A stretch of 18,962 nt of DNA from UHGV virus genome UHGV-0190812; one strand, given 5' to 3'. Shown here piece by piece: positions 5,618-15,693 of this stretch. Numbering within the stretch: the first letter of the stretch is position 1; each line of letters starts with the position of its first letter. Under the pieces are notes generated by a model, which was not told the origin of the DNA, did not search any database, and saw only the letters and a program-made list of their open reading frames with translations. A program made the translations under genes and the position numbers. The stretch is from a virus.

Positions 5618-6475
5618 TCAGCCTACTGTTCTAAAGATGAGAAGTGGTGTCATCCCATACGAATCACTTCCTCTACCAGCTTGTACCTTGACCATATCCA
5701 GGAAGGATTGTAATCCTGACTTGAGATCGTGTTCAGGGAAATCAGGGTTATTGATATTCTGATCTTGTACAGAATCTGGCAAGGCATCAATCAATCCAAT
5801 GACATGCCAGGTACCCGGTATGGTGCCACCATATTTTAAGGCTAAGTCATCAGGATTAATTGTTAAATATTCTTTATCAATAGACATCCACATCAGGTTG
5901 CCATTCTCATCAATAAAATCAACCTGGAGGATGTTGGGAACGATATTAATGAGTTTCTTAACTACACCAATGGTAAGCCCTGGAGATATCTCAATTTCAT
6001 CTGGGGTGAGTTTTCCTTTAAGCTTCGCTTTGGCTTTTGGGGGAAGGTTGACCGTGTTTAATTGTGCTTGGGCTATCTCACCAAAAATAGGCATAATTTT
6101 CTGAATAGTTGACACATCAAAAATGCGCATTTTTCCAACAGAATGAACAACTGAACCAAGATTCTCACCATTAAGTCCAGTTTTAATCATTCCTGCTTCA
6201 TCTAATTTATCGAGAAAATTAATTGGTAATGACCATGAAGCGTCGAAAGTTTTCTCTTGCGAATGTGTTAAGGTGTCGTCAGTCCCCACTTTTCCTTTAA
6301 GAATCTTGACGCTCAATTCAACGGATTTATTAGATTTATCTGTGTCAGAAGTAGTTTGTTTTACGCTCGTCACTACACCAGCATTGTGAAGCTGGGCTGT
6401 GAGGGAGCTAACGCGTACACGGTCTATGTAAAGAAAATCAAATAGTGAATCTGTGCTTTGTTGTTCGAGCTCCAT
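5618..6475 (-). CDS. hypothetical protein, 285 aa (304 aa if started at 6532); repressor-linked cargo, function unknown
   Basis: Long minus-strand ORF between the cI-like gene and pL. ATG at 6475 with AGAGAGGA about 8 nt upstream; alternative ATG at 6532. Appears AT-rich by eye relative to flanking modules. No motif I can assign (no kinase, nuclease, ATPase or TM signatures noted). Confidence 0.6.
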   Translation of the reverse strand: MELEQQSTDSLFDFLYIDRVRVSSLTAQLHNAGVVTSVKQTTSDTDKSNKSVELSVKILKGKVGTDDTLTHSQEKTFDASWSLPINFLDKLDEAGMIKTGLNGENLGSVVHSVGKMRIFDVSTIQKIMPIFGEIAQAQLNTVNLPPKAKAKLKGKLTPDEIEISPGLTIGVVKKLINIVPNILQVDFIDENGNLMWMSIDKEYLTINPDDLALKYGGTIPGTWHVIGLIDALPDSVQDQNINNPDFPEHDLKSGLQSFLDMVKVQAGRGSDSYGMTPLLIFRTVG

Positions 6476-6617
6476 TTTGCCAATCCTCTCTAAATTTTTC
6501 TTTTTCCTCGCGAATTCTTTTTTGCTTTTCATCTATCTCATCGAAAAGTTGAATGAGTTCATCCACACCATGTGAAGGCGTCTCTGATTTCACTTTCTTC
6601 AAAATTTTCTTGAACAT
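6438..6617 (-). CDS. small charged hypothetical protein (59 aa), possible partner of the downstream 285-aa protein
   Basis: First ATG of the 6438-6695 ORF (MFKKILKKVKSETPSHGVDELIQLFDEIDEKQKRIREEKEKFREDWQNGARTTKHRFTI). Overlaps the 5' end of the next gene in another frame. No convincing Shine-Dalgarno. Confidence 0.3.
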   Translation of the reverse strand: MFKKILKKVKSETPSHGVDELIQLFDEIDEKQKRIREEKEKFREDWQNGARTTKHRFTI

Positions 6618-7563: not shown

Positions 7564-7797
7564 TTGATAATGACAAATCAAACCATTCAACTCGCAATCA
7601 GTATTACAGGTAGTCAAAAACGACTGGCAGATCTATGCGGTGTAGCCCAACCCACAGTTTGGCGTTGGCTACACGGTGGCGGAATTGATGCCCGCTATGT
7701 AATGAAAATTGTCTCAGCCACTGGTGGAAAGATTAAACCAGCAGATATTCGTCCCGACCTCGCACCATTGTTTAACGCGAGTAATTCTGCCGCCTAA
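7564..7797 (+). CDS. cro: Cro-like repressor (YdaS/Cro HTH family)
   Basis: 77-aa ORF immediately downstream of pR; HTH segment SQKRLADLCGVAQPTVWRWLHGG; AGGA Shine-Dalgarno. Confidence 0.75.
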   Translation: MIMTNQTIQLAISITGSQKRLADLCGVAQPTVWRWLHGGGIDARYVMKIVSATGGKIKPADIRPDLAPLFNASNSAA

Positions 7798-7821
7798 ACT
7801 GCGGCGTTAACTGATAAGGCA

Positions 7822-8367
7822 ATGACTATGCAACCACTTACATACCAACAGACTAGCGGATTTAGCCCGACTGCGGTGATAAATCGTTCTCAAACAAAAC
7901 AGGCGCCAGGCCACGAAAAAATCCGTGATGCCGTTCGCGCCTGGTCGGCTGCAGATAATCAGGATGTTGTTGCCGCACTCATTGTGAATGAGTATCGGGA
8001 GCAGGGCGGCGGCACCATCGATTTCCCTGATGATGTCAGCCGTGCACGCCAGAAGCTGTTCCGCTTCCTCGATAACAAATTCGATTCTGAAAAATACCGA
8101 AATAACGTGCGTGAACTGACCCCGGCAATTCTGGCGGTACTACCGCTGGAATATCGCGGCCACCTGGTTGAGCAGGATAGCTACATGGCTCGGCTGGCTG
8201 AAATGGAAAAGGAACTCAGTGAGGCAAAACAGGCTGTCATTCTCAACGCACCACGCCACCAGAAACTGAAGGAGATGAGTGAAGGCATTGTGTCGATGTT
8301 TCGTGTGGACCCGGATTTGGCTGGTCCACTGATGGCGATGGTCACCACCATGCTGGGGGCAATATGA
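7822..8367 (+). CDS. YdaT-family protein in the cII position (putative lysis-lysogeny regulator)
   Basis: 181-aa ORF between cro and O. EYREQGGG and PAILAVLPLEYRGHL segments resemble Rac YdaT as recalled from memory. Stop overlaps the next ORF (ATGA). Confidence 0.6.
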   Translation: MTMQPLTYQQTSGFSPTAVINRSQTKQAPGHEKIRDAVRAWSAADNQDVVAALIVNEYREQGGGTIDFPDDVSRARQKLFRFLDNKFDSEKYRNNVRELTPAILAVLPLEYRGHLVEQDSYMARLAEMEKELSEAKQAVILNAPRHQKLKEMSEGIVSMFRVDPDLAGPLMAMVTTMLGAI

Positions 8368-8453
8368 CAGGTTCGGAAATGGCGAAAGCCGGTCTGCGCG
8401 AACAGAACCGACTTTCAGGTGCAAATCGTAACACACTCATTGCGGGAGGAATT

Positions 8454-9383
8454 ATGGCAAACACTGCTGAGATATTCAATTTTCCAGTGCCGGATGTGGC
8501 ACAAAAGGAGCGGCGCGTGGCAGATCTCGACGATGGTTATACGCGCATTGCAAATGAGTTGCTGGAAGCTGTGATGCTGGCCGGATTAACACAGCACCAG
8601 CTTCTGGTCTTCCTGGCTGTCATGCGCAAAACATATGGCTTTAATAAAAGACTGGATTGGGTGAGCAACGAGCAACTTTCCGAATTGACCGGGATATTGC
8701 CGCACAAGTGTTCTGCTGCAAAAAGCGTTCTGGTAAAGCGTGGGATTCTTATTCAGAGCGGGCGGAATATCGGCATTAATAATGTGGTCAGTGAATGGTC
8801 AACATTACCCGAATCAGGTAAGAAAAATAAAGTTTACCTGAAAGAGGTAAATTTACCTGAATCAGGTAAGAAAAGTTTACCCAAATCAGGTAAAGGCGTT
8901 TACCCGAATCAGGTAAACACAAAAGACAAACTAACAAAAGACAATATAAAACCTTTTTCGTCCGAGAATTCTGGCGAATCCTCTGACCAACCAGAAAACG
9001 ATCTTCCTGTGGTGAAACCGGATGCTGCAATTCAGAGCGGCAGCAAGTGGGGGACAGCAGAAGACCTGACCGCCGCAGAGTGGATGTTTGACATGGTGAA
9101 GACCATCGCGCCATCAGCCAGAAAACCGAATTTTGCAGGGTGGGCTAACGATATCCGCCTGATGCGTGAACGTGACGGACGTAACCACCGCGACATGTGC
9201 GTGCTGTTCCGCTGGGCATGCCAGGACAACTTCTGGTCCGGTAACGTGCTAAGTCCGGCCAAACTCCGCGACAAGTGGACCCAGCTCGAAATCAACCGAA
9301 ACAAGCAACAGGCTGGCGTGACAGCCGGCAAACCAAAACTCGACCTGACGAACACTGACTGGATTTACGGGGTGGAGCTATGA
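8454..9383 (+). CDS. O: replication initiator O (lambda O family) containing the origin iterons
   Basis: From the ATG at 8454 (GGGAGGA Shine-Dalgarno) the N-terminus MANTAEIFNFP...RVADLDDGYTRIANELLEA...LLVFLAVMRKTYGFNK parallels lambda O (MTNTAKILNF...NVADLDDGYARL...VLLAILRKTYGWNK). An in-frame upstream start at 8364 is also possible. Confidence 0.85.
   Translation: MANTAEIFNFPVPDVAQKERRVADLDDGYTRIANELLEAVMLAGLTQHQLLVFLAVMRKTYGFNKRLDWVSNEQLSELTGILPHKCSAAKSVLVKRGILIQSGRNIGINNVVSEWSTLPESGKKNKVYLKEVNLPESGKKSLPKSGKGVYPNQVNTKDKLTKDNIKPFSSENSGESSDQPENDLPVVKPDAAIQSGSKWGTAEDLTAAEWMFDMVKTIAPSARKPNFAGWANDIRLMRERDGRNHRDMCVLFRWACQDNFWSGNVLSPAKLRDKWTQLEINRNKQQAGVTAGKPKLDLTNTDWIYGVEL
8805..8917. repeat. 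ori iterons: four to five ~18-bp internally palindromic repeats TTACC(C/T)GAATCAGGTAA(G/A) followed by an A/T-rich stretch
   Basis: Copies at about 8805, 8853, 8877 and 8900 (23-24 bp or multiples apart), plus a degenerate copy at about 8834. The A/T-rich run 8917-8955 lies immediately downstream. Same architecture as the lambda origin inside O. Confidence 0.7.
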
Positions 9384-10081
9384 AAAACATCGCCGCACAG
9401 ATGGTTAACTTTGACTGTGAGCAGATGCGCCGGATCGCCAACAACATGCCGGAACAGTACGACGAAAAGCCACAGGTACAGCAGGTAGCGCAGATCATCA
9501 ACGGTGTGTTCAGCCAGTTACTGGCAACTTTCCCGGCGAGCCTGGCTAACCGTGACCAGAATGAACTGAACGAAATCCGCCGCCAGTGGGTTCTGGCTTT
9601 CCGGGAAAACGGGATCACCACAATGGAACAGGTTAACGCTGGAATGCGCGTAGCCCGTCGGCAGAATCGACCATTCCTGCCATCACCCGGGCAGTTTGTC
9701 GCCTGGTGCCGGGAAGAAGCATCTGTTAACGCCGGGCTGCCAAACGTCAGCGAGCTGGTTGATATGGTTTACGAGTATTGCCGGAAGCGTGGCCTGTATC
9801 CGGATGCAGAGTCTTATCCGTGGAAATCGAACGCGCATTACTGGTTGGTTACCAACTTGTACCAGAACATGCGGGCCAATGCGCTGACTGACGCGGAATT
9901 ACGGCGCAAGGCTGCCGATGAACTGACCTGTATGACAGCGCGAATTAACCGTGGTGAGACGATACCTGAACCAGTAAAACAACTTCCTGTTATGGGCGGT
10001 AGACCTCTAAATCGTGCACAGGCTCTGGCGAAGATCGCAGAAATCAAAGCTAAGTTTGGGCTGAAAGGAGCAAGTGTATGA
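9380..10081 (+). CDS. P: replication protein P (DnaB helicase loader)
   Basis: 233-aa translation is near-identical to lambda P as recalled (MKNIAAQMVNFD.EQMRRIANNMPEQYDEKPQVQQVAQIINGVFSQLLATFPASLANRDQNE...). Confidence 0.95.
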   Translation: MKNIAAQMVNFDCEQMRRIANNMPEQYDEKPQVQQVAQIINGVFSQLLATFPASLANRDQNELNEIRRQWVLAFRENGITTMEQVNAGMRVARRQNRPFLPSPGQFVAWCREEASVNAGLPNVSELVDMVYEYCRKRGLYPDAESYPWKSNAHYWLVTNLYQNMRANALTDAELRRKAADELTCMTARINRGETIPEPVKQLPVMGGRPLNRAQALAKIAEIKAKFGLKGASV

Positions 10082-10262: not shown

Positions 10263-10288
10263 GGCGGTGTTAGCACCGCCTTTAATTA
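10263..10288. terminator. hairpin between P and the 115-aa gene (possible weak terminator)
   Basis: GGCGGTG-TTAG-CACCGCC perfect 7-bp stem followed on the plus strand by TTTAATT; weak U-tract. Confidence 0.3.
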
Positions 10289-10633
10289 AAGCTCAGAAAG
10301 CTGTAATAATATTTTTTCTGGAGTGGTTTCGTTGGAAATGCTAAATAATACAGCACCTTTGACTGATTCATCTCTCATTTCAATTTCACATGAATTATGG
10401 TTGTATGAGATTGCATAATTTTTTAATGTTCTTTCGCTTTGCCACCACACCATATTTGCAAGACTTCCGTTATACGTTCTTATCTCGATTGATCCGGGCA
10501 GGGCTTTCCAGATAACACCTCCTAGCAATGTAAGAGCGGCTGCACCAACATTTTTTGCATGATGGTTAGAACGTTCCATTACCCCTTCAGCATAACGATG
10601 AAGAATCTCTATGTCAGTCGCTTTGATAGTCAT
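10286..10633 (-). CDS. hypothetical protein, 115 aa; reverse-oriented AT-rich moron in the ren slot
   Basis: ORF opposite in orientation to the flanking replication and nin genes, with visibly lower GC and an AT-rich upstream region (10634-10860) containing an extended -10-like TGCTATATT on the minus strand. No family recognised. Confidence 0.55.
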   Translation of the reverse strand: MTIKATDIEILHRYAEGVMERSNHHAKNVGAAALTLLGGVIWKALPGSIEIRTYNGSLANMVWWQSERTLKNYAISYNHNSCEIEMRDESVKGAVLFSISNETTPEKILLQLSEL

Positions 10634-11111: not shown

Positions 11112-11224
11112 TTGACGACATTATTTATCCGGCGCTATATTCTGTGCGTTGCCGCAAAATCGGCACACGGGATTGGCGTCCCGGAATACTACTCAACGCA
11201 TACCGCGTTAAGCGGTTTTTTTAT
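11112..11224 (+). promoter_or_regulatory. promoter plus ~75-nt structured leader ending in an intrinsic terminator (attenuator or small RNA) upstream of the Bro-N gene
   Basis: TTGACG (11112-11117), 18-nt spacer, TATATT (11136-11141). Downstream stem-loops TGCCG/CGGCA and CGGGA/TCCCG, then ACCGC-GTTAA-GCGGT followed by T(7) at about 11202-11222. Confidence 0.35.
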
Positions 11225-11378
11225 GCGCTAAGCACGGCTACGCCCAAATTATGGTGGGCTGTGTGAGGGCTTCTTCGGGAGCGCCGGGTTTGAGTAGCCG
11301 GTTACGCCAACCTTGCACAGTTCACCACCAGTCGATTGGCGTCGTTGGTGGTGATGGTTAACCTGATGAGGTGATACT

Positions 11379-11939
11379 ATGACTACTCAATTAGCATTCC
11401 ACAAAACGACGTTTACCCCAATTTGCCACAATAACAGAATTTGGCTTACTGCCACTGAAGTTGGTTTAGCTCTGGAATATGCGGACGATAAAGCAGTTCA
11501 GCGCATTTACTCTCGTCACTCAGATGAATTTACAGATATGATGACAAGGGTGGTCAAAGTGACCACCCCTCGTGGAATGCAGGAGTCTCGAGTATTTAGC
11601 CTTCGCGGAGCCCATTTGATCGCCATGTTTGCACGAACTCCTGTAGCCAAAGAGTTCCGCCGCTGGGTTCTGGATATTCTCGATCGAGAAGTTCAACAAT
11701 CCCCAATCATAAAACAATTCACTGATAACGAACTTTGCACACTTGCTTGGTTATGGCGAGCAGGGGATGTGATGTTAACCGCCTGCCAGAATGTTACTCC
11801 ACTTCTTCAGGTTGCGGAGCACCGCGAAGCTGGTCGCTTTACTTCTATCGGGCAAGAATATCCCCAGATACTACATAAGGCGCGCGAAATCCTTGCCAGA
11901 GAAACGGCACCATGTAAAACTCCAGCCTTGGCAGGATAA
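11379..11939 (+). CDS. Bro-N domain protein (putative antirepressor-like)
   Basis: 186-aa ORF. N-terminal FHKTTFTPICHNNRIWLTATEVGLALEY...IYSRHSDEF...VFSLRGAHLIAMFARTPVAKEFRRWVLDIL fits the Bro-N fold motif pattern of phage antirepressors. GAGGTGA Shine-Dalgarno. Confidence 0.7.
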   Translation: MTTQLAFHKTTFTPICHNNRIWLTATEVGLALEYADDKAVQRIYSRHSDEFTDMMTRVVKVTTPRGMQESRVFSLRGAHLIAMFARTPVAKEFRRWVLDILDREVQQSPIIKQFTDNELCTLAWLWRAGDVMLTACQNVTPLLQVAEHREAGRFTSIGQEYPQILHKAREILARETAPCKTPALAG

Positions 11940-14100: not shown

Positions 14101-14383
14101 TTTGAGAAAAGCAGCGCGTGGTCGGGAATGCCAGGTAAGAATCCCTGGCGTATGTAATGGCAATCCTGAAACGTCAGTACTGGCACATATCCGGCTGGCT
14201 GGATTGTGCGGTACCGGTATCAAACCGCCAGACCTGATTGCCACCATTGCATGTTCTGCCTGCCACGACGAAATCGACCGTCGCACGCATTTTGTTGACG
14301 CTGGATATGCAAAAGAATGTGCGCTGGAAGGTATGGCGAGAACACAGGTTATCTGGCTGAAAGAGGGGGTAATTAAGGCGTGA
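14093..14383 (+). CDS. YbcO-like (DUF1364-type) Cys-rich nin-region protein
   Basis: 96 aa from the ATG at 14093 (AGGAGG Shine-Dalgarno); Cys cluster CQVRIPGVC...CSAC; lies between NinE-like and RusA as in the DLP12 gene order I recall. Confidence 0.55.
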
Positions 14384-14748
14384 ATACTTACTGCATCACA
14401 CTACCCTGGCCGCCGAGCAATAACCGCTATTACCGCCATAATCGCGGGCGCACGCACGTCAGTGCAGAGGGGCAGGCATACCGCGATAACGTCGCCCGAA
14501 TCATTAAAAACGCAATGCTGGATATCGGCCTGGCTATGCCTGTGAAAATCCGCATTGAGTGCCACATGCCGGATCGCCGTCGCCGTGACCTGGATAATCT
14601 GCAAAAAGCCGCTTTTGACGCACTCACTAAAGCAGGTTTCTGGCTGGATGATGCTCAGGTCGTTGATTACCGCGTTGTGAAGATGCCCGTTACCAAAGGT
14701 GGGAAGCTGGAGCTGACCATCACCGAACTGGGAATGAATGATGTTTGA
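14380..14748 (+). CDS. rusA: RusA Holliday-junction resolvase
   Basis: 122-aa translation is near-identical to E. coli DLP12 RusA as recalled ([91 protein letters not shown]...). Confidence 0.9.
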
Positions 14749-14878
14749 GTCTTATATGGCAGAACGTCTTCGCCACCGCAGGATGCGCCTGCGCTTATAT
14801 CGTTTCCCCGGTTCTGTTTTGACCGATTACCGGATACTGAAGAATTACGCCAAAACACTGAAAGGAGCTGCCGCATGA
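14741..14878 (+). CDS. ylcG: YlcG-like small protein
   Basis: 45-aa ORF below the track cut-off ([45 protein letters not shown]). Overlaps the rusA stop and the Q start (ATGA). Matches DLP12 YlcG as recalled. Confidence 0.5.
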
Positions 14879-15564
14879 ATACCCAATATTTACAGTATGT
14901 CCGCGAGCAACTCATTGTGGCTACTGCTGATTTGAGCGGAGCAACGAAAGGCCAGCTTGAAGCCTGGCTGGAGCATGCACAATTTGATACTGGTACATAT
15001 AAACGAAAGAAGCCGCGCATTCTGGATGAGGTAACGGGCAAGATGATTACGCTGGATAATCCGCCGATTTCCGGTAAGCAGTCGTACGCAAAAGGTTCAT
15101 CCATTGCACTGGTCAGCCAGGTTGAGTTCTCAACATCTTCATGGCGCCGCGCGGTTCTGTCTCTCGAAGAACATCAGAAAGCGTGGTTGCTGTGGAGTTA
15201 CAGTGAAAACATCAGCTTTGAATACCAGGTGGCGATCACCCAGTGGGCGTGGTCTGAATTCAGGGGGTATCTCGGCGCGAAGAGGGTGGCAGGCAAGACC
15301 ATGGAGCGCCTGAAGAAGCTGATATGGCTGGCAGCGCAGGATGTCAAAGCAGGGTTGGTCGGGAAAGATGCCTACGAATACCAGAAGCTGGCGGAACTGG
15401 TTGGCGTGGCGAAATCCACCTGGACAGAGACATACCTGCCTCACTGGTTGGCAATGCGTAGCTGCTTTATGCGACTCGATAGCGGTGCGCTTATCTCAGT
15501 AACGCGATCACGTTCACAACAAAAGGCGACAAGTTCGCACGTAAGTCTTGCAAAACCGAACTGA
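14875..15564 (+). CDS. late-gene antiterminator Q (QuuD-like)
   Basis: 229-aa ORF directly after rusA-ylcG, upstream of a candidate late promoter and the lysis cassette. Assignment by synteny and length; no motif independently verified. Confidence 0.6.
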   Translation: MNTQYLQYVREQLIVATADLSGATKGQLEAWLEHAQFDTGTYKRKKPRILDEVTGKMITLDNPPISGKQSYAKGSSIALVSQVEFSTSSWRRAVLSLEEHQKAWLLWSYSENISFEYQVAITQWAWSEFRGYLGAKRVAGKTMERLKKLIWLAAQDVKAGLVGKDAYEYQKLAELVGVAKSTWTETYLPHWLAMRSCFMRLDSGALISVTRSRSQQKATSSHVSLAKPN

Positions 15565-15693
15565 AACGCTTATATTTCATGTAAATCTGATATCGTCGCC
15601 ATAGCTTTGTTGGTCGACAAAGAATTAACAGCCTCGCCATCGTGCGGGGCTTTTACTTTACATGCTGTGAACACAAAAAAAGTAACTTTTATG

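What the first reader, a model, noticed from the sequence alone, without database searches (positions are those of the whole stretch)
8805..8955. Replication origin embedded in the O gene: five iterons plus A/T-rich unwinding region
Four good and one degenerate copy of an 18-bp internally palindromic repeat (TTACCCGAATCAGGTAAG type), with about 24-bp phasing, are followed by an A/T-rich stretch, all within the linker-coding part of O. The O N-terminal DNA-binding domain should recognise these; the iteron sequence appears to differ from lambda while P is lambda-identical, consistent with modular O-N/ori and O-C/P specificity.
Basis: partly seen in the sequence, partly recalled or inferred. Interest (0 to 1): 0.4.

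Follow-up and report, generated by a model that had tools for sequence, protein, structure and literature searches.

The report
Lambda-type phage origin, non-lambda iterons
This is an ordinary replication origin of a lambda-like prophage, sitting inside its initiator gene O, with five initiator-binding repeats that differ from lambda's but belong to a very common, so far unstudied specificity type.

Summary
Five copies of a 17-bp palindromic repeat, TTACC-N7-GGTAA, lie at 8805, 8834, 8853, 8877 and 8900 (0.04 expected by chance). They are followed by the most A/T-rich stretch of the early-right operon, 8917-8957. All of this lies in the linker-coding part of an O-family initiator gene, directly upstream of a lambda-type P gene.

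Across enterobacterial genera, the repeat arms are 99.6% identical while synonymous sites of the adjacent coding sequence are 54% identical. The repeats are read in two reading frames. The repeat sequence changes whenever the O N-terminal domain changes class. The same O-N/iteron cassette is naturally joined to lambda P, to DnaC-like loaders and to a DnaB-like helicase.

Corrections:
- Spacing is 29/19/24/23. The last four sites copy lambda's 20/24/23, and the first is an extra upstream site.
- P is 227/233 identical to lambda P, not identical.
- O probably starts at 8454.

The allele occurs in about 42% of complete E. coli genomes and at least 120 viral contigs. It is a new member of a textbook kind. 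It could be the classical phage 82 origin, which I could not check. Interest is low.

The parts
8454..9383 (+). O-family replication initiator gene (309 aa). The open frame extends upstream to an ATG at 8364 (339 aa), but 8454 is the probable start.
   Evidence: Pfam Phage_rep_O, E = 4e-34. Met at 8454 aligns with Met1 of lambda/434 O and of the Klebsiella-phage O. GGAGG lies 5 nt upstream of 8454. Both the 309-aa and 339-aa forms are in public databases as 'replication protein (O)'.
8514..8798 (+). Coding sequence of the O N-terminal origin-binding domain. The segment LTGILPHKCSAAKS (O residues 78-91) is the candidate specificity helix.
   Evidence: Pfam match covers residues 51-145 of the long ORF. 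It is 50% identical to lambda O-N, 58% to P22 gp18, 84% to Klebsiella phage GZ7. The residues fixed in this iteron class and absent from all other classes (L82, H84, A88, S91) cluster in this segment.
8805..8821 (.). Iteron 1, TTACCCGAATCAGGTAA. An accessory upstream site, 29 bp before iteron 2, with no counterpart in lambda.
   Evidence: It corresponds to the 30-bp gap in the alignment with 434. It is absent from the Xenorhabdus, Pantoea and Providencia relatives, which have four sites.
8834..8850 (.). Iteron 2, TTACCTGAAAGAGGTAA. Arms are perfect and the centre is variant. Positional equivalent of lambda ITN1.
8853..8869 (.). Iteron 3, TTACCTGAATCAGGTAA. Self-complementary at 16 of 17 positions. 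Positional equivalent of lambda ITN2.
8877..8893 (.). Iteron 4, TTACCCAAATCAGGTAA. Positional equivalent of lambda ITN3.
8900..8916 (.). Iteron 5, TTACCCGAATCAGGTAA. Positional equivalent of lambda ITN4; it abuts the A/T-rich tract.
8917..8957 (.). A/T-rich, A-strand-biased tract, the presumed DNA unwinding element. It contains the direct repeat ACAAAAGACAA(A/T) and is homologous to the lambda, P22 and Klebsiella-phage tracts. It is also the junction where modules are exchanged.
   Evidence: 75.6% A+T and the lowest-GC 40-mer of the operon. Aligned with lambda 39119-39160. Homology to lambda-type phages begins at 8904-8917. Homology to Klebsiella phages ends near 8947. One viral contig carries a hybrid tract.
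8958..9383 (+). Coding sequence of the lambda-type O C-terminal (P-interacting) domain.
   Evidence: 408/426 nt identical to lambda. 96.5% aa identity over 144 residues.
9380..10081 (+). P gene (lambda-type DnaB helicase loader), overlapping the O stop codon.
   Evidence: Pfam Phage_lambda_P, E = 8e-62. 229/233 aa identical to 434 P. 227/233 aa and 94.2% nt identical to lambda P.

Best explanation
This is the theta-replication origin of a lambdoid prophage, built like ori-lambda but with a different initiator/iteron specificity.

Dimers of the O protein's N-terminal domain bind the five palindromic TTACC-N7-GGTAA iterons. The four sites next to the A/T-rich tract form the core, and the fifth, upstream site is accessory. 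The resulting O-some stresses and opens the adjacent A/T-rich tract at 8917-8957. The lambda-type C-terminal domain of O then recruits the P-DnaB complex encoded and loaded by the downstream P gene.

Shown here: the anatomy, the homology, selection acting on the DNA of the repeats, covariation of initiator class with iteron class, and natural module swapping.

Inferred from the lambda paradigm: binding, bending, unwinding and P-DnaB recruitment.
For: 1. **The repeats are real and clustered.** Five sites in 112 bp against 0.04 expected, with none elsewhere in the window.
2. **Position is homologous to curated origins.** The array lies between the Phage_rep_O domain and the O C-terminal domain. 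The spacing of its four A/T-proximal sites, 19/24/23, matches lambda/434's 20/24/23, and a homologous A/T-rich tract follows.
3. **Selection acts on the DNA, not the peptide.** The repeats are read in frames 0, 2, 0, 0, 2, giving LPESGK, YLKEVN, LPESGK, LPKSGK and YPNQVN. I compared 12 loci that were found through the O-N protein, so independently of the repeats. They come from Escherichia, Klebsiella, Enterobacter, Pseudocitrobacter, Xenorhabdus, Pantoea and Providencia. Across them:
   - the arms are 99.6% identical (39 of 40 columns invariant);
   - the centres are 88% identical;
   - the spacers are 59% identical;
   - O-N third codon positions are 54% identical.
4. **Initiator and site co-vary.** O-N at 64% identity or more carries TTACC-N7-GGTAA. 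O-N at 55-58% identity carries TTAGC-N7-GCTAA. O-N at 50% or less carries the lambda type. The one exception, L012, has a different putative recognition segment and different repeats.
5. **The module is functional in real phages.** It is 99.7% identical in phage PhiR70_1, whose record gives E. coli C as host, and 97-99% identical in 15 other phage records. The whole of 8805-8957 is identical in 18 of 80 viral contigs.
6. **The cassette is swapped naturally.** The same O-N/iteron cassette is joined to lambda O-C plus P (52 contigs), to another O-C plus a DnaC-like loader (16 contigs), and to a DnaB-like helicase (1 contig).
7. **The mechanism of the paradigm is established.** This covers O dimers on each iteron, the O-some, A/T-rich unwinding, and the N-terminal DNA-binding and C-terminal P-binding domains (PMC6022878, PMC7466680, PMC3349717).
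Against: - There is no experimental evidence for this allele: no binding, footprint or origin mapping. I found no paper that mentions the iteron sequence.
- By nearest-neighbour energy, the least stable 40-mer of the operon starts at 8816, inside the iteron array, rather than in the A/T-rich tract. The exact unwinding site is therefore not pinned down by sequence.
- The arms are invariant in the viral-contig set by construction, because the search pattern fixed them. Only the protein-seeded genome set is an unbiased test.
- This particular prophage may or may not be inducible.
Confidence: 0.9

Rival explanations
1. The sequence is a genuine origin type, but in this particular prophage it is an inactive relic. 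The prophage would be cryptic and the origin would no longer fire.
For: This allele is in 2,297 of 5,426 complete E. coli genomes, and many resident lambdoid prophages are defective. The window shows accessory or replaced genes around the module.
Against: O and P are intact ORFs. The repeats and the A/T-rich tract are identical to those of 18 viral contigs and 99.7% identical to the module of phage PhiR70_1. The immunity, replication, nin and Q genes are all present in the window.
Confidence: 0.06
2. The repeats are O-binding sites whose main role is regulatory, and initiation occurs elsewhere. Possible roles are autoregulation, titration or exclusion of co-resident phages of the same replication type, or handcuffing.
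For: In lambda, cloned iterons (with oop) inhibit replication of rep-lambda phages independently of the A/T-rich tract (PMC3349717). Copy number in this family ranges from 4 to 9.
Against: The array is position-for-position equivalent to lambda's, sits directly next to a conserved A/T-rich tract, and no other site cluster exists in the window. These roles would add to origin function rather than replace it.
Confidence: 0.03
3. The repeats merely reflect a repetitive peptide linker (LPESGK-like units) under protein-level selection, or recent slippage. They would have no function as DNA sites.
For: The region encodes a low-complexity, Lys/Ser/Gly/Pro-rich linker.
Against: Copies lie in two reading frames and encode different peptides. 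Each copy is an inverted repeat. Arm positions that fall on third codon positions are invariant across genera, while ordinary third positions are 54% identical and the spacers 59% identical. The sequence co-varies with the O-N class.
Confidence: 0.01

Closest known systems
ori-lambda (also used by phages 434 and 21): four 18-bp iterons plus a 38-bp A/T-rich tract inside gene O, lambda 39034-39160
   Same: Intragenic position between O-N and O-C. Palindromic 17-19 bp iterons. Core spacing 19/24/23 against 20/24/23. A homologous A/T-rich tract (ACACAAAAGACA...ACAAAAGA). O-C 96.5% and P 97% identical. A leftward pO-like promoter overlapping the O start (PMC3349717).
   Different: The iteron sequence is TTACC-N7-GGTAA rather than TCCCTC-N5-GAGGGA. 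There are five sites rather than four. O-N is only 50% identical. It is therefore a different replication specificity.
Salmonella phage P22 ori in gene 18
   Same: Closest classically studied iteron. It has the same TTACC/GGTAA arms (e.g. TTTACCAGATCGGTAAA) and nearly the same A/T-rich tract (ACACAAAAGACAATATACAAAAGACAAT). O-N is 58% identical.
   Different: The P22 centre is 5 nt rather than 7, and P22 has four less regular copies. gp18 has a different C-terminal domain and works with gp12, a DnaB-type helicase, rather than P. The putative recognition segment differs: APTKCSTAKN against LPHKCSAAKS.
Shiga-toxin phage origins (933W, P27): lambda-type ori with six iterons
   Same: Extra iterons are added on the side away from the A/T-rich tract. 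In P27 plasmids they are bound weakly but are required (PMC7466680). This is the best precedent for accessory iteron 1 in the window.
   Different: Stx-phage iterons and O-N are of lambda specificity, and they have two extra sites rather than one.
phi80 ori in gene 15
   Same: Four annotated gp15 sites, TTCCCGAAAACGGGAA, followed by an A/T-rich tract inside the initiator gene. In form it is the iteron closest to the window's.
   Different: The arms are TTCCCG/CGGGAA. O-N is 38% and O-C 47% identical, and the loader gp14 is diverged.
Phage 82 ori (classical lambda-82 hybrid partner)
   Same: From the literature title cited in PMC6022878 (Furth and Yates 1978), and from my own recollection, phage 82 forms hybrid O proteins with lambda. 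That implies a different O-N/ori with a lambda-compatible O-C/P, which is the layout seen here. The window's rusA-Q segment is 96% identical to the only phage 82 record held (X92588).
   Different: Unknown. No phage 82 O/ori sequence was available in any collection or paper I could read, so identity with this allele is neither shown nor excluded.

Membership tests
Lambdoid intragenic origin (ori-lambda architecture) | Lies inside an O-family initiator gene, between the N-terminal DNA-binding domain and the C-terminal domain | tested here: met
   Phage_rep_O domain ends at nt 8798, iterons occupy 8805-8916, and the lambda-like O-C begins at about 8958.
Lambdoid intragenic origin (ori-lambda architecture) | Array of at least four 17-19 bp iterons with internal dyad symmetry at about two-helical-turn spacing | tested here: met
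   Five TTACC-N7-GGTAA sites at spacing 29/19/24/23, against 0.04 expected by chance.
Lambdoid intragenic origin (ori-lambda architecture) | An A/T-rich tract of about 40 bp directly adjoining the last iteron | tested here: met
   8917-8957 is 75.6% A+T, holds the lowest-GC 40-mer of the operon, and is homologous to the lambda tract.
Lambdoid intragenic origin (ori-lambda architecture) | A helicase-loader or helicase gene immediately downstream of the initiator gene | tested here: met
   P at 9380-10081 overlaps the O stop codon; Pfam Phage_lambda_P, E = 8e-62.
Lambdoid intragenic origin (ori-lambda architecture) | Iterons are bound by the cognate O protein, and replication initiates here | not testable with these tools
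   Only indirect support is available: DNA-level purifying selection and covariation of O-N class with iteron class.
rep-lambda specificity group (lambda, 434, 21, Stx phages) | Iterons of the ATCCCTCAAAACGAGGGA type recognised by lambda O-N | tested here: not met
   The arms differ completely and O-N is 50% identical. The window is not a member of this specificity group.
P22 gene 18 ori specificity group | P22-type iterons (TTACC-N5-GGTAA) with a gp18-like N-terminal domain | tested here: not met
   The arms are the same, but the centre is 7 nt against 5. O-N is 58% identical and its putative recognition segment differs. It is related, but cross-recognition cannot be assumed.
Phage 82 ori specificity group | Iteron sequence and O-N identical or near-identical to phage 82 | not testable with these tools
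   No phage 82 O/ori sequence is held; only X92588 (rus-Q) is present.

The most novel reading that the evidence does not exclude
The TTACC-N7-GGTAA O-N/ori cassette is a distinct replication-specificity group that has not been studied experimentally, and it is the commonest one among E. coli lambdoid prophages (about 42% of complete genomes).

It is loader-agnostic: it works with P, with DnaC-like loaders and with a DnaB-like helicase, through exchange at the conserved A/T-rich tract.

Its variable iteron number (4, 5, 7 or 9) would tune initiation, or cross-exclusion between co-resident prophages.

Specificity would be set by a handful of residues in one helix (L82, H84, A88, S91).
Probability: 0.3. 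Interest if true: 0.35.

Novelty: new member of a known kind. Interest (0 to 1): 0.15.

Why it matters
Practically, it allows correct rep_origin annotation for a very large set of E. coli, Klebsiella and Enterobacter prophages. The PhiR70_1 record, the one record of this allele whose annotation I inspected, has no origin feature.

It also defines a replication-specificity (incompatibility/exclusion) group separate from rep-lambda.

Conceptually, it is a clean natural illustration of the classical modular model, in which O-N and the iterons travel together while O-C and the loader are swapped at the A/T-rich tract. It also offers a short candidate specificity helix for engineering orthogonal lambda-type replicons.

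None of this changes the current understanding of lambdoid replication.

Tried and rejected
- **Phage 82 comparison.** Neighbouring accessions OL657225 and OL657229 are not in the collection. X92588 is only a 2.3-kb rus-Q fragment. PMC326803 is not held. Text searches for ori82, rep82 and lambda-82 gave only a reference title. Lambda, 434, 21, phi80 and P22 were compared.
- **Phage 21.** The phage 21 record carries lambda-type iterons, so it is not a separate type.
- **Literature search for the iteron string.** CCGAATCAGGTAA gave 0 papers.
- **Sequence search of the PDB with O-N.** No significant match (best E = 0.26). I did not run structure prediction, because the Pfam assignment already identifies the domain and a fold match would not change the verdict.
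- **Lambda-like inverted repeat right of the A/T-rich tract.** In this window it is weakened by a mismatch (GTCCGAG/CTCTGAC against lambda's GTCAGAG/CTCTGAC). I did not count it as part of the origin.
- **PADLOC scan of accessory genes flanking the module.** No hits.
- **Rejected readings.** I rejected a peptide-repeat artefact (two reading frames, invariant third positions). I also rejected membership of the rep-lambda specificity group (different arms).

Full report
**1. Observation**

The window holds five direct copies of a palindromic repeat at 8805-8821, 8834-8850, 8853-8869, 8877-8893 and 8900-8916. Start-to-start spacing is 29, 19, 24 and 23 bp. Searching the whole 18,962-bp window, both strands, for TTACCCGAATCAGGTAA with up to three mismatches finds only these five + strand sites. 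The minus-strand matches are the same palindromes read backwards. The expected number is 0.04, and none of 200 dinucleotide-preserving shuffles reaches the observed count.

All five copies have perfect inverted arms, TTACC...GGTAA. The 'degenerate' copy at 8834 deviates only in the 7-nt centre, and copy 8853 is self-complementary at 16 of 17 positions.

Immediately to the right, 8917-8957 (ACACAAAAGACAAACTAACAAAAGACAATATAAAACCTTTT) is 75.6% A+T with a strong A bias on the top strand. It contains the lowest-GC 40-mer of the whole cro-to-P operon (22.5%). Only 0.6% of all 40-mers in the window are that low.

The only descriptive correction is that 'about 24-bp phasing' is an average of irregular spacings.

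**2. Context**

The repeats lie in an ORF (8364-9383) whose product matches Pfam Phage_rep_O (E = 4e-34, residues 51-145 of the long ORF). The next gene (9380-10081) matches Phage_lambda_P (E = 8e-62). Upstream are an S24/HTH repressor, a YdaS-like Cro and a YdaT-like gene in the cII position.

O probably starts at 8454 rather than 8364, for four reasons:
- Met 8454 aligns with Met1 of lambda and 434 O.
- It also aligns with Met1 of the O genes of related Klebsiella phages, which have non-coding DNA upstream.
- GGAGG sits 5 nt upstream.
- The sequence context GGAG..ATTATG.CAAA is shared with lambda.

**3. Comparison with curated origins**

In the alignment with phage 434, whose record annotates 'ori lambda 4 iterons for gpO binding', the window differs along its length as follows:
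- The O N-terminal half has diverged.
- The iteron block has diverged and contains one extra 30-bp unit.
- The sequence becomes about 97% identical from the A/T-rich tract to the end of O.

Numerically:

| Segment | Identity to lambda |
|---|---|
| O-N | 49.6% aa |
| O-C | 96.5% aa (408/426 nt) |
| P | 227/233 aa, 661/702 nt |

P is also 229/233 aa identical to 434 P. P is therefore lambda-type, not 'lambda-identical'.

The last four window repeats are spaced 19/24/23, against 20/24/23 for lambda and 434. Repeats 2-5 are thus positional equivalents of ITN1-4, and repeat 1 is an additional upstream site. The Stx-phage origins provide a precedent: they carry two extra upstream iterons that are weakly bound but required for plasmid replication (PMC7466680).

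The iteron sequences compare as follows:

| Phage | Iteron |
|---|---|
| Window | TTACC-YRAAWSA-GGTAA |
| Lambda, 434, 21 | ATCCCTCAAAACGAGGGA type |
| phi80 | TTCCCGAAAACGGGAA |
| P22 | TTACC-N5-GGTAA type, e.g. TTTACCAGATCGGTAAA |
| SEN34 | TTAGC-N7-GCTAA |

The P22 array is followed by almost the same A/T-rich sequence as the window's. P22 gene 18 is the closest classically studied relative, with O-N 58% identical.

**4. Evidence that the repeats are selected as DNA sites for the O N-terminal domain**

(a) The five copies are read in two frames (0, 2, 0, 0, 2). They encode LPESGK, YLKEVN, LPESGK, LPKSGK and YPNQVN.

(b) A protein-seeded scan of one genome per bacterial species returned 49 loci. 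I compared 12 loci carrying this iteron class: the window, two Klebsiella phages fetched from the phage collection, and nine of the scan loci. They come from Escherichia, Klebsiella, Enterobacter, Pseudocitrobacter, Xenorhabdus, Pantoea and Providencia. Mean pairwise identity across them:

| Region | Identity |
|---|---|
| 40 arm positions | 99.6% (39 invariant columns) |
| Iteron centres | 88% |
| A/T-rich tract | 78% |
| Inter-iteron spacers | 59% |
| O-N codon positions 1+2 | 89% |
| O-N third codon positions | 54% |

(c) The iteron class tracks the initiator class. Every O-N at 64% identity or more to the window carries TTACC-N7-GGTAA with the 19/24/23 core. O-N at 55-58% identity carries TTAGC-N7-GCTAA. 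O-N at 50% or less carries the lambda type.

(d) The single exception is L012 (Enterobacter sichuanensis). It is family-like for the first 77 or so residues, but it has a P22/SEN34-like segment afterwards (LAATRCSTAKNELIRK) and correspondingly different repeats.

(e) The residues fixed within the TTACC-N7-GGTAA class and absent from every other class are L82, H84, A88 and S91. All lie within LTGILPHKCSAAKS, a plausible recognition helix. This last step is inference from covariation only.

**5. Modularity**

The same O-N/iteron/A/T-rich cassette is joined in nature to different partners:
- Klebsiella phages GZ7 and ST11-VIM1phi8.2 have all five iterons at identical spacing and the same start of the A/T-rich tract. 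They then diverge into an unrelated O C-terminus followed by a DnaC/AAA+ loader.
- Pantoea loci have a diverged lambda-like O-C plus P. Other loci have further O-C types.
- Among 69 viral contigs with enough downstream sequence, 52 carry lambda O-C plus P, 16 carry the GZ7-type O-C plus a DnaC-like loader, and one carries another O-C plus a P22 gp12-like DnaB helicase.

The exchange point is the A/T-rich tract. Homology with lambda-type phages starts at 8904-8917. Homology with Klebsiella phages ends near 8947. One contig has a hybrid tract. [quoted passage not shown]

**6. Distribution**

- The O/P module is 97-99.7% identical in 16 phage records, including PhiR70_1, Turner, 4A7, Lambda_4C10 and Perceval.
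- The PhiR70_1 record annotates O and P but no origin.
- The O-N plus ori segment is found, at 80% coverage or more, in 2,297 of 5,426 complete E. coli genomes.
- The window's exact O protein is on more than 1,000 contigs, in a 90%-identity cluster of 7,825 sequences, all named simply 'replication protein (O)'.
- Of 77 contigs that could be evaluated, 73 have five copies at 29/19/24/23, three have four copies and one has nine.
- An Arsenophonus locus has seven copies.

**7. Mechanism**

The following is inferred from the lambda paradigm (PMC6022878, PMC7466680, PMC3349717). O dimers bind each palindromic iteron, and the O-some bends the DNA and stresses it. The adjoining A/T-rich tract opens on supercoiled, transcriptionally activated DNA. 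O-C then recruits P-DnaB.

Shown here are the parts, their homology, DNA-level selection and protein/site covariation. Not shown are binding, unwinding and firing.

One nuance: by nearest-neighbour energy, the least stable 40-mer of the operon starts at 8816, inside the iteron array. Sequence alone therefore does not fix the melting point.

**8. Novelty and verdict**

The kind of element is textbook. This specificity variant is extremely common, and its protein is routinely annotated. I found no paper containing the iteron sequence.

It may be the classical phage 82 origin. The window's rusA-Q region is 96% identical to the only phage 82 fragment held, and phage 82 is the historical lambda-compatible hybrid partner. 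No phage 82 O/ori sequence was accessible, however.

I file it as a new member of a known kind, of low interest.

Noticed in passing
window 8378-8479, minus strand: A leftward sigma-70-like promoter (TTGAAT-17-CATAAT, TG-extended) has a -10 that overlaps the O ATG at 8454, the same layout as lambda pO. A stable minus-strand hairpin lies at about 8380-8417 (z = -3.0) but lacks a good U-tail. This may be an oop-like antisense RNA against the 3' end of the YdaT-like gene.
   Followed up: partly
window 7564-8367: The cro and cII positions are occupied by YdaS-like (Pfam YdaS_toxin) and YdaT-like (YdaT_toxin) proteins, as in the Rac prophage, not by lambda-type Cro and CII.
   Followed up: no
window 11150-11939 and 15580-15653: Rfam finds isrK (11150-11222) and C4 antisense RNA (11247-11332) directly upstream of a Bro-N/P22_AR_C antirepressor gene (11379-11939). 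It also finds isrJ (15580-15653) just downstream of the Q gene. Together these look like an isrK-antirepressor island of the Gifsy/P1 immI type inside the nin region.
   Followed up: partly
window 5618-6532 (-) and 10286-10633 (-): Two oppositely oriented accessory genes flank the replication and immunity module. One is a DUF6414 protein next to the repressor, in the position where lambda has rexAB. The other is a VCH_CASS14 (integron-cassette protein family) gene just after P, where lambda has ren. Neither matches a PADLOC defence model.
   Followed up: partly
window 14380-15208: The rusA-orf45-Q(5') segment is 96% identical to the classical phage 82 fragment X92588. The Q protein is of the Phage_antiter_Q (82-type) family.
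   Followed up: partly
L012 2840-3230 (Enterobacter sichuanensis NZ_POVL01000015.1): This O gene has a T5orf172/MUG113 (GIY-YIG-like) domain of about 100 aa inserted in frame where iterons 1-3 would be. It has a P22/SEN34-like putative recognition segment, and its remaining repeats differ (TTTCAACCGTCAGGGAA, TTTACACCGTGTGGGAA).
   Followed up: partly
L099 (IMGVR_UViG_2910596823_000013) and L019 (Arsenophonus nasoniae): Iteron copy number is expanded. L099 has nine copies through triplication of the 48-bp iteron 1+2 unit (spacing 29, 19, 29, 19, 29, 19, 24, 23). Arsenophonus has seven copies.
   Followed up: partly
L025-L037, L039, L043 and L053-L057 (genome-contig hits): Lambda-type O, at a uniform 50% identity to the query, appears in assemblies of implausible hosts such as Bradyrhizobium, Pseudomonas, Neobacillus, Oceanobacillus, Shewanella, Ruminococcus and Segatella MAGs. 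The contigs are often about 48 kb or tiny, and have low coverage. This is most simply lambda DNA contamination of those assemblies.
   Followed up: no
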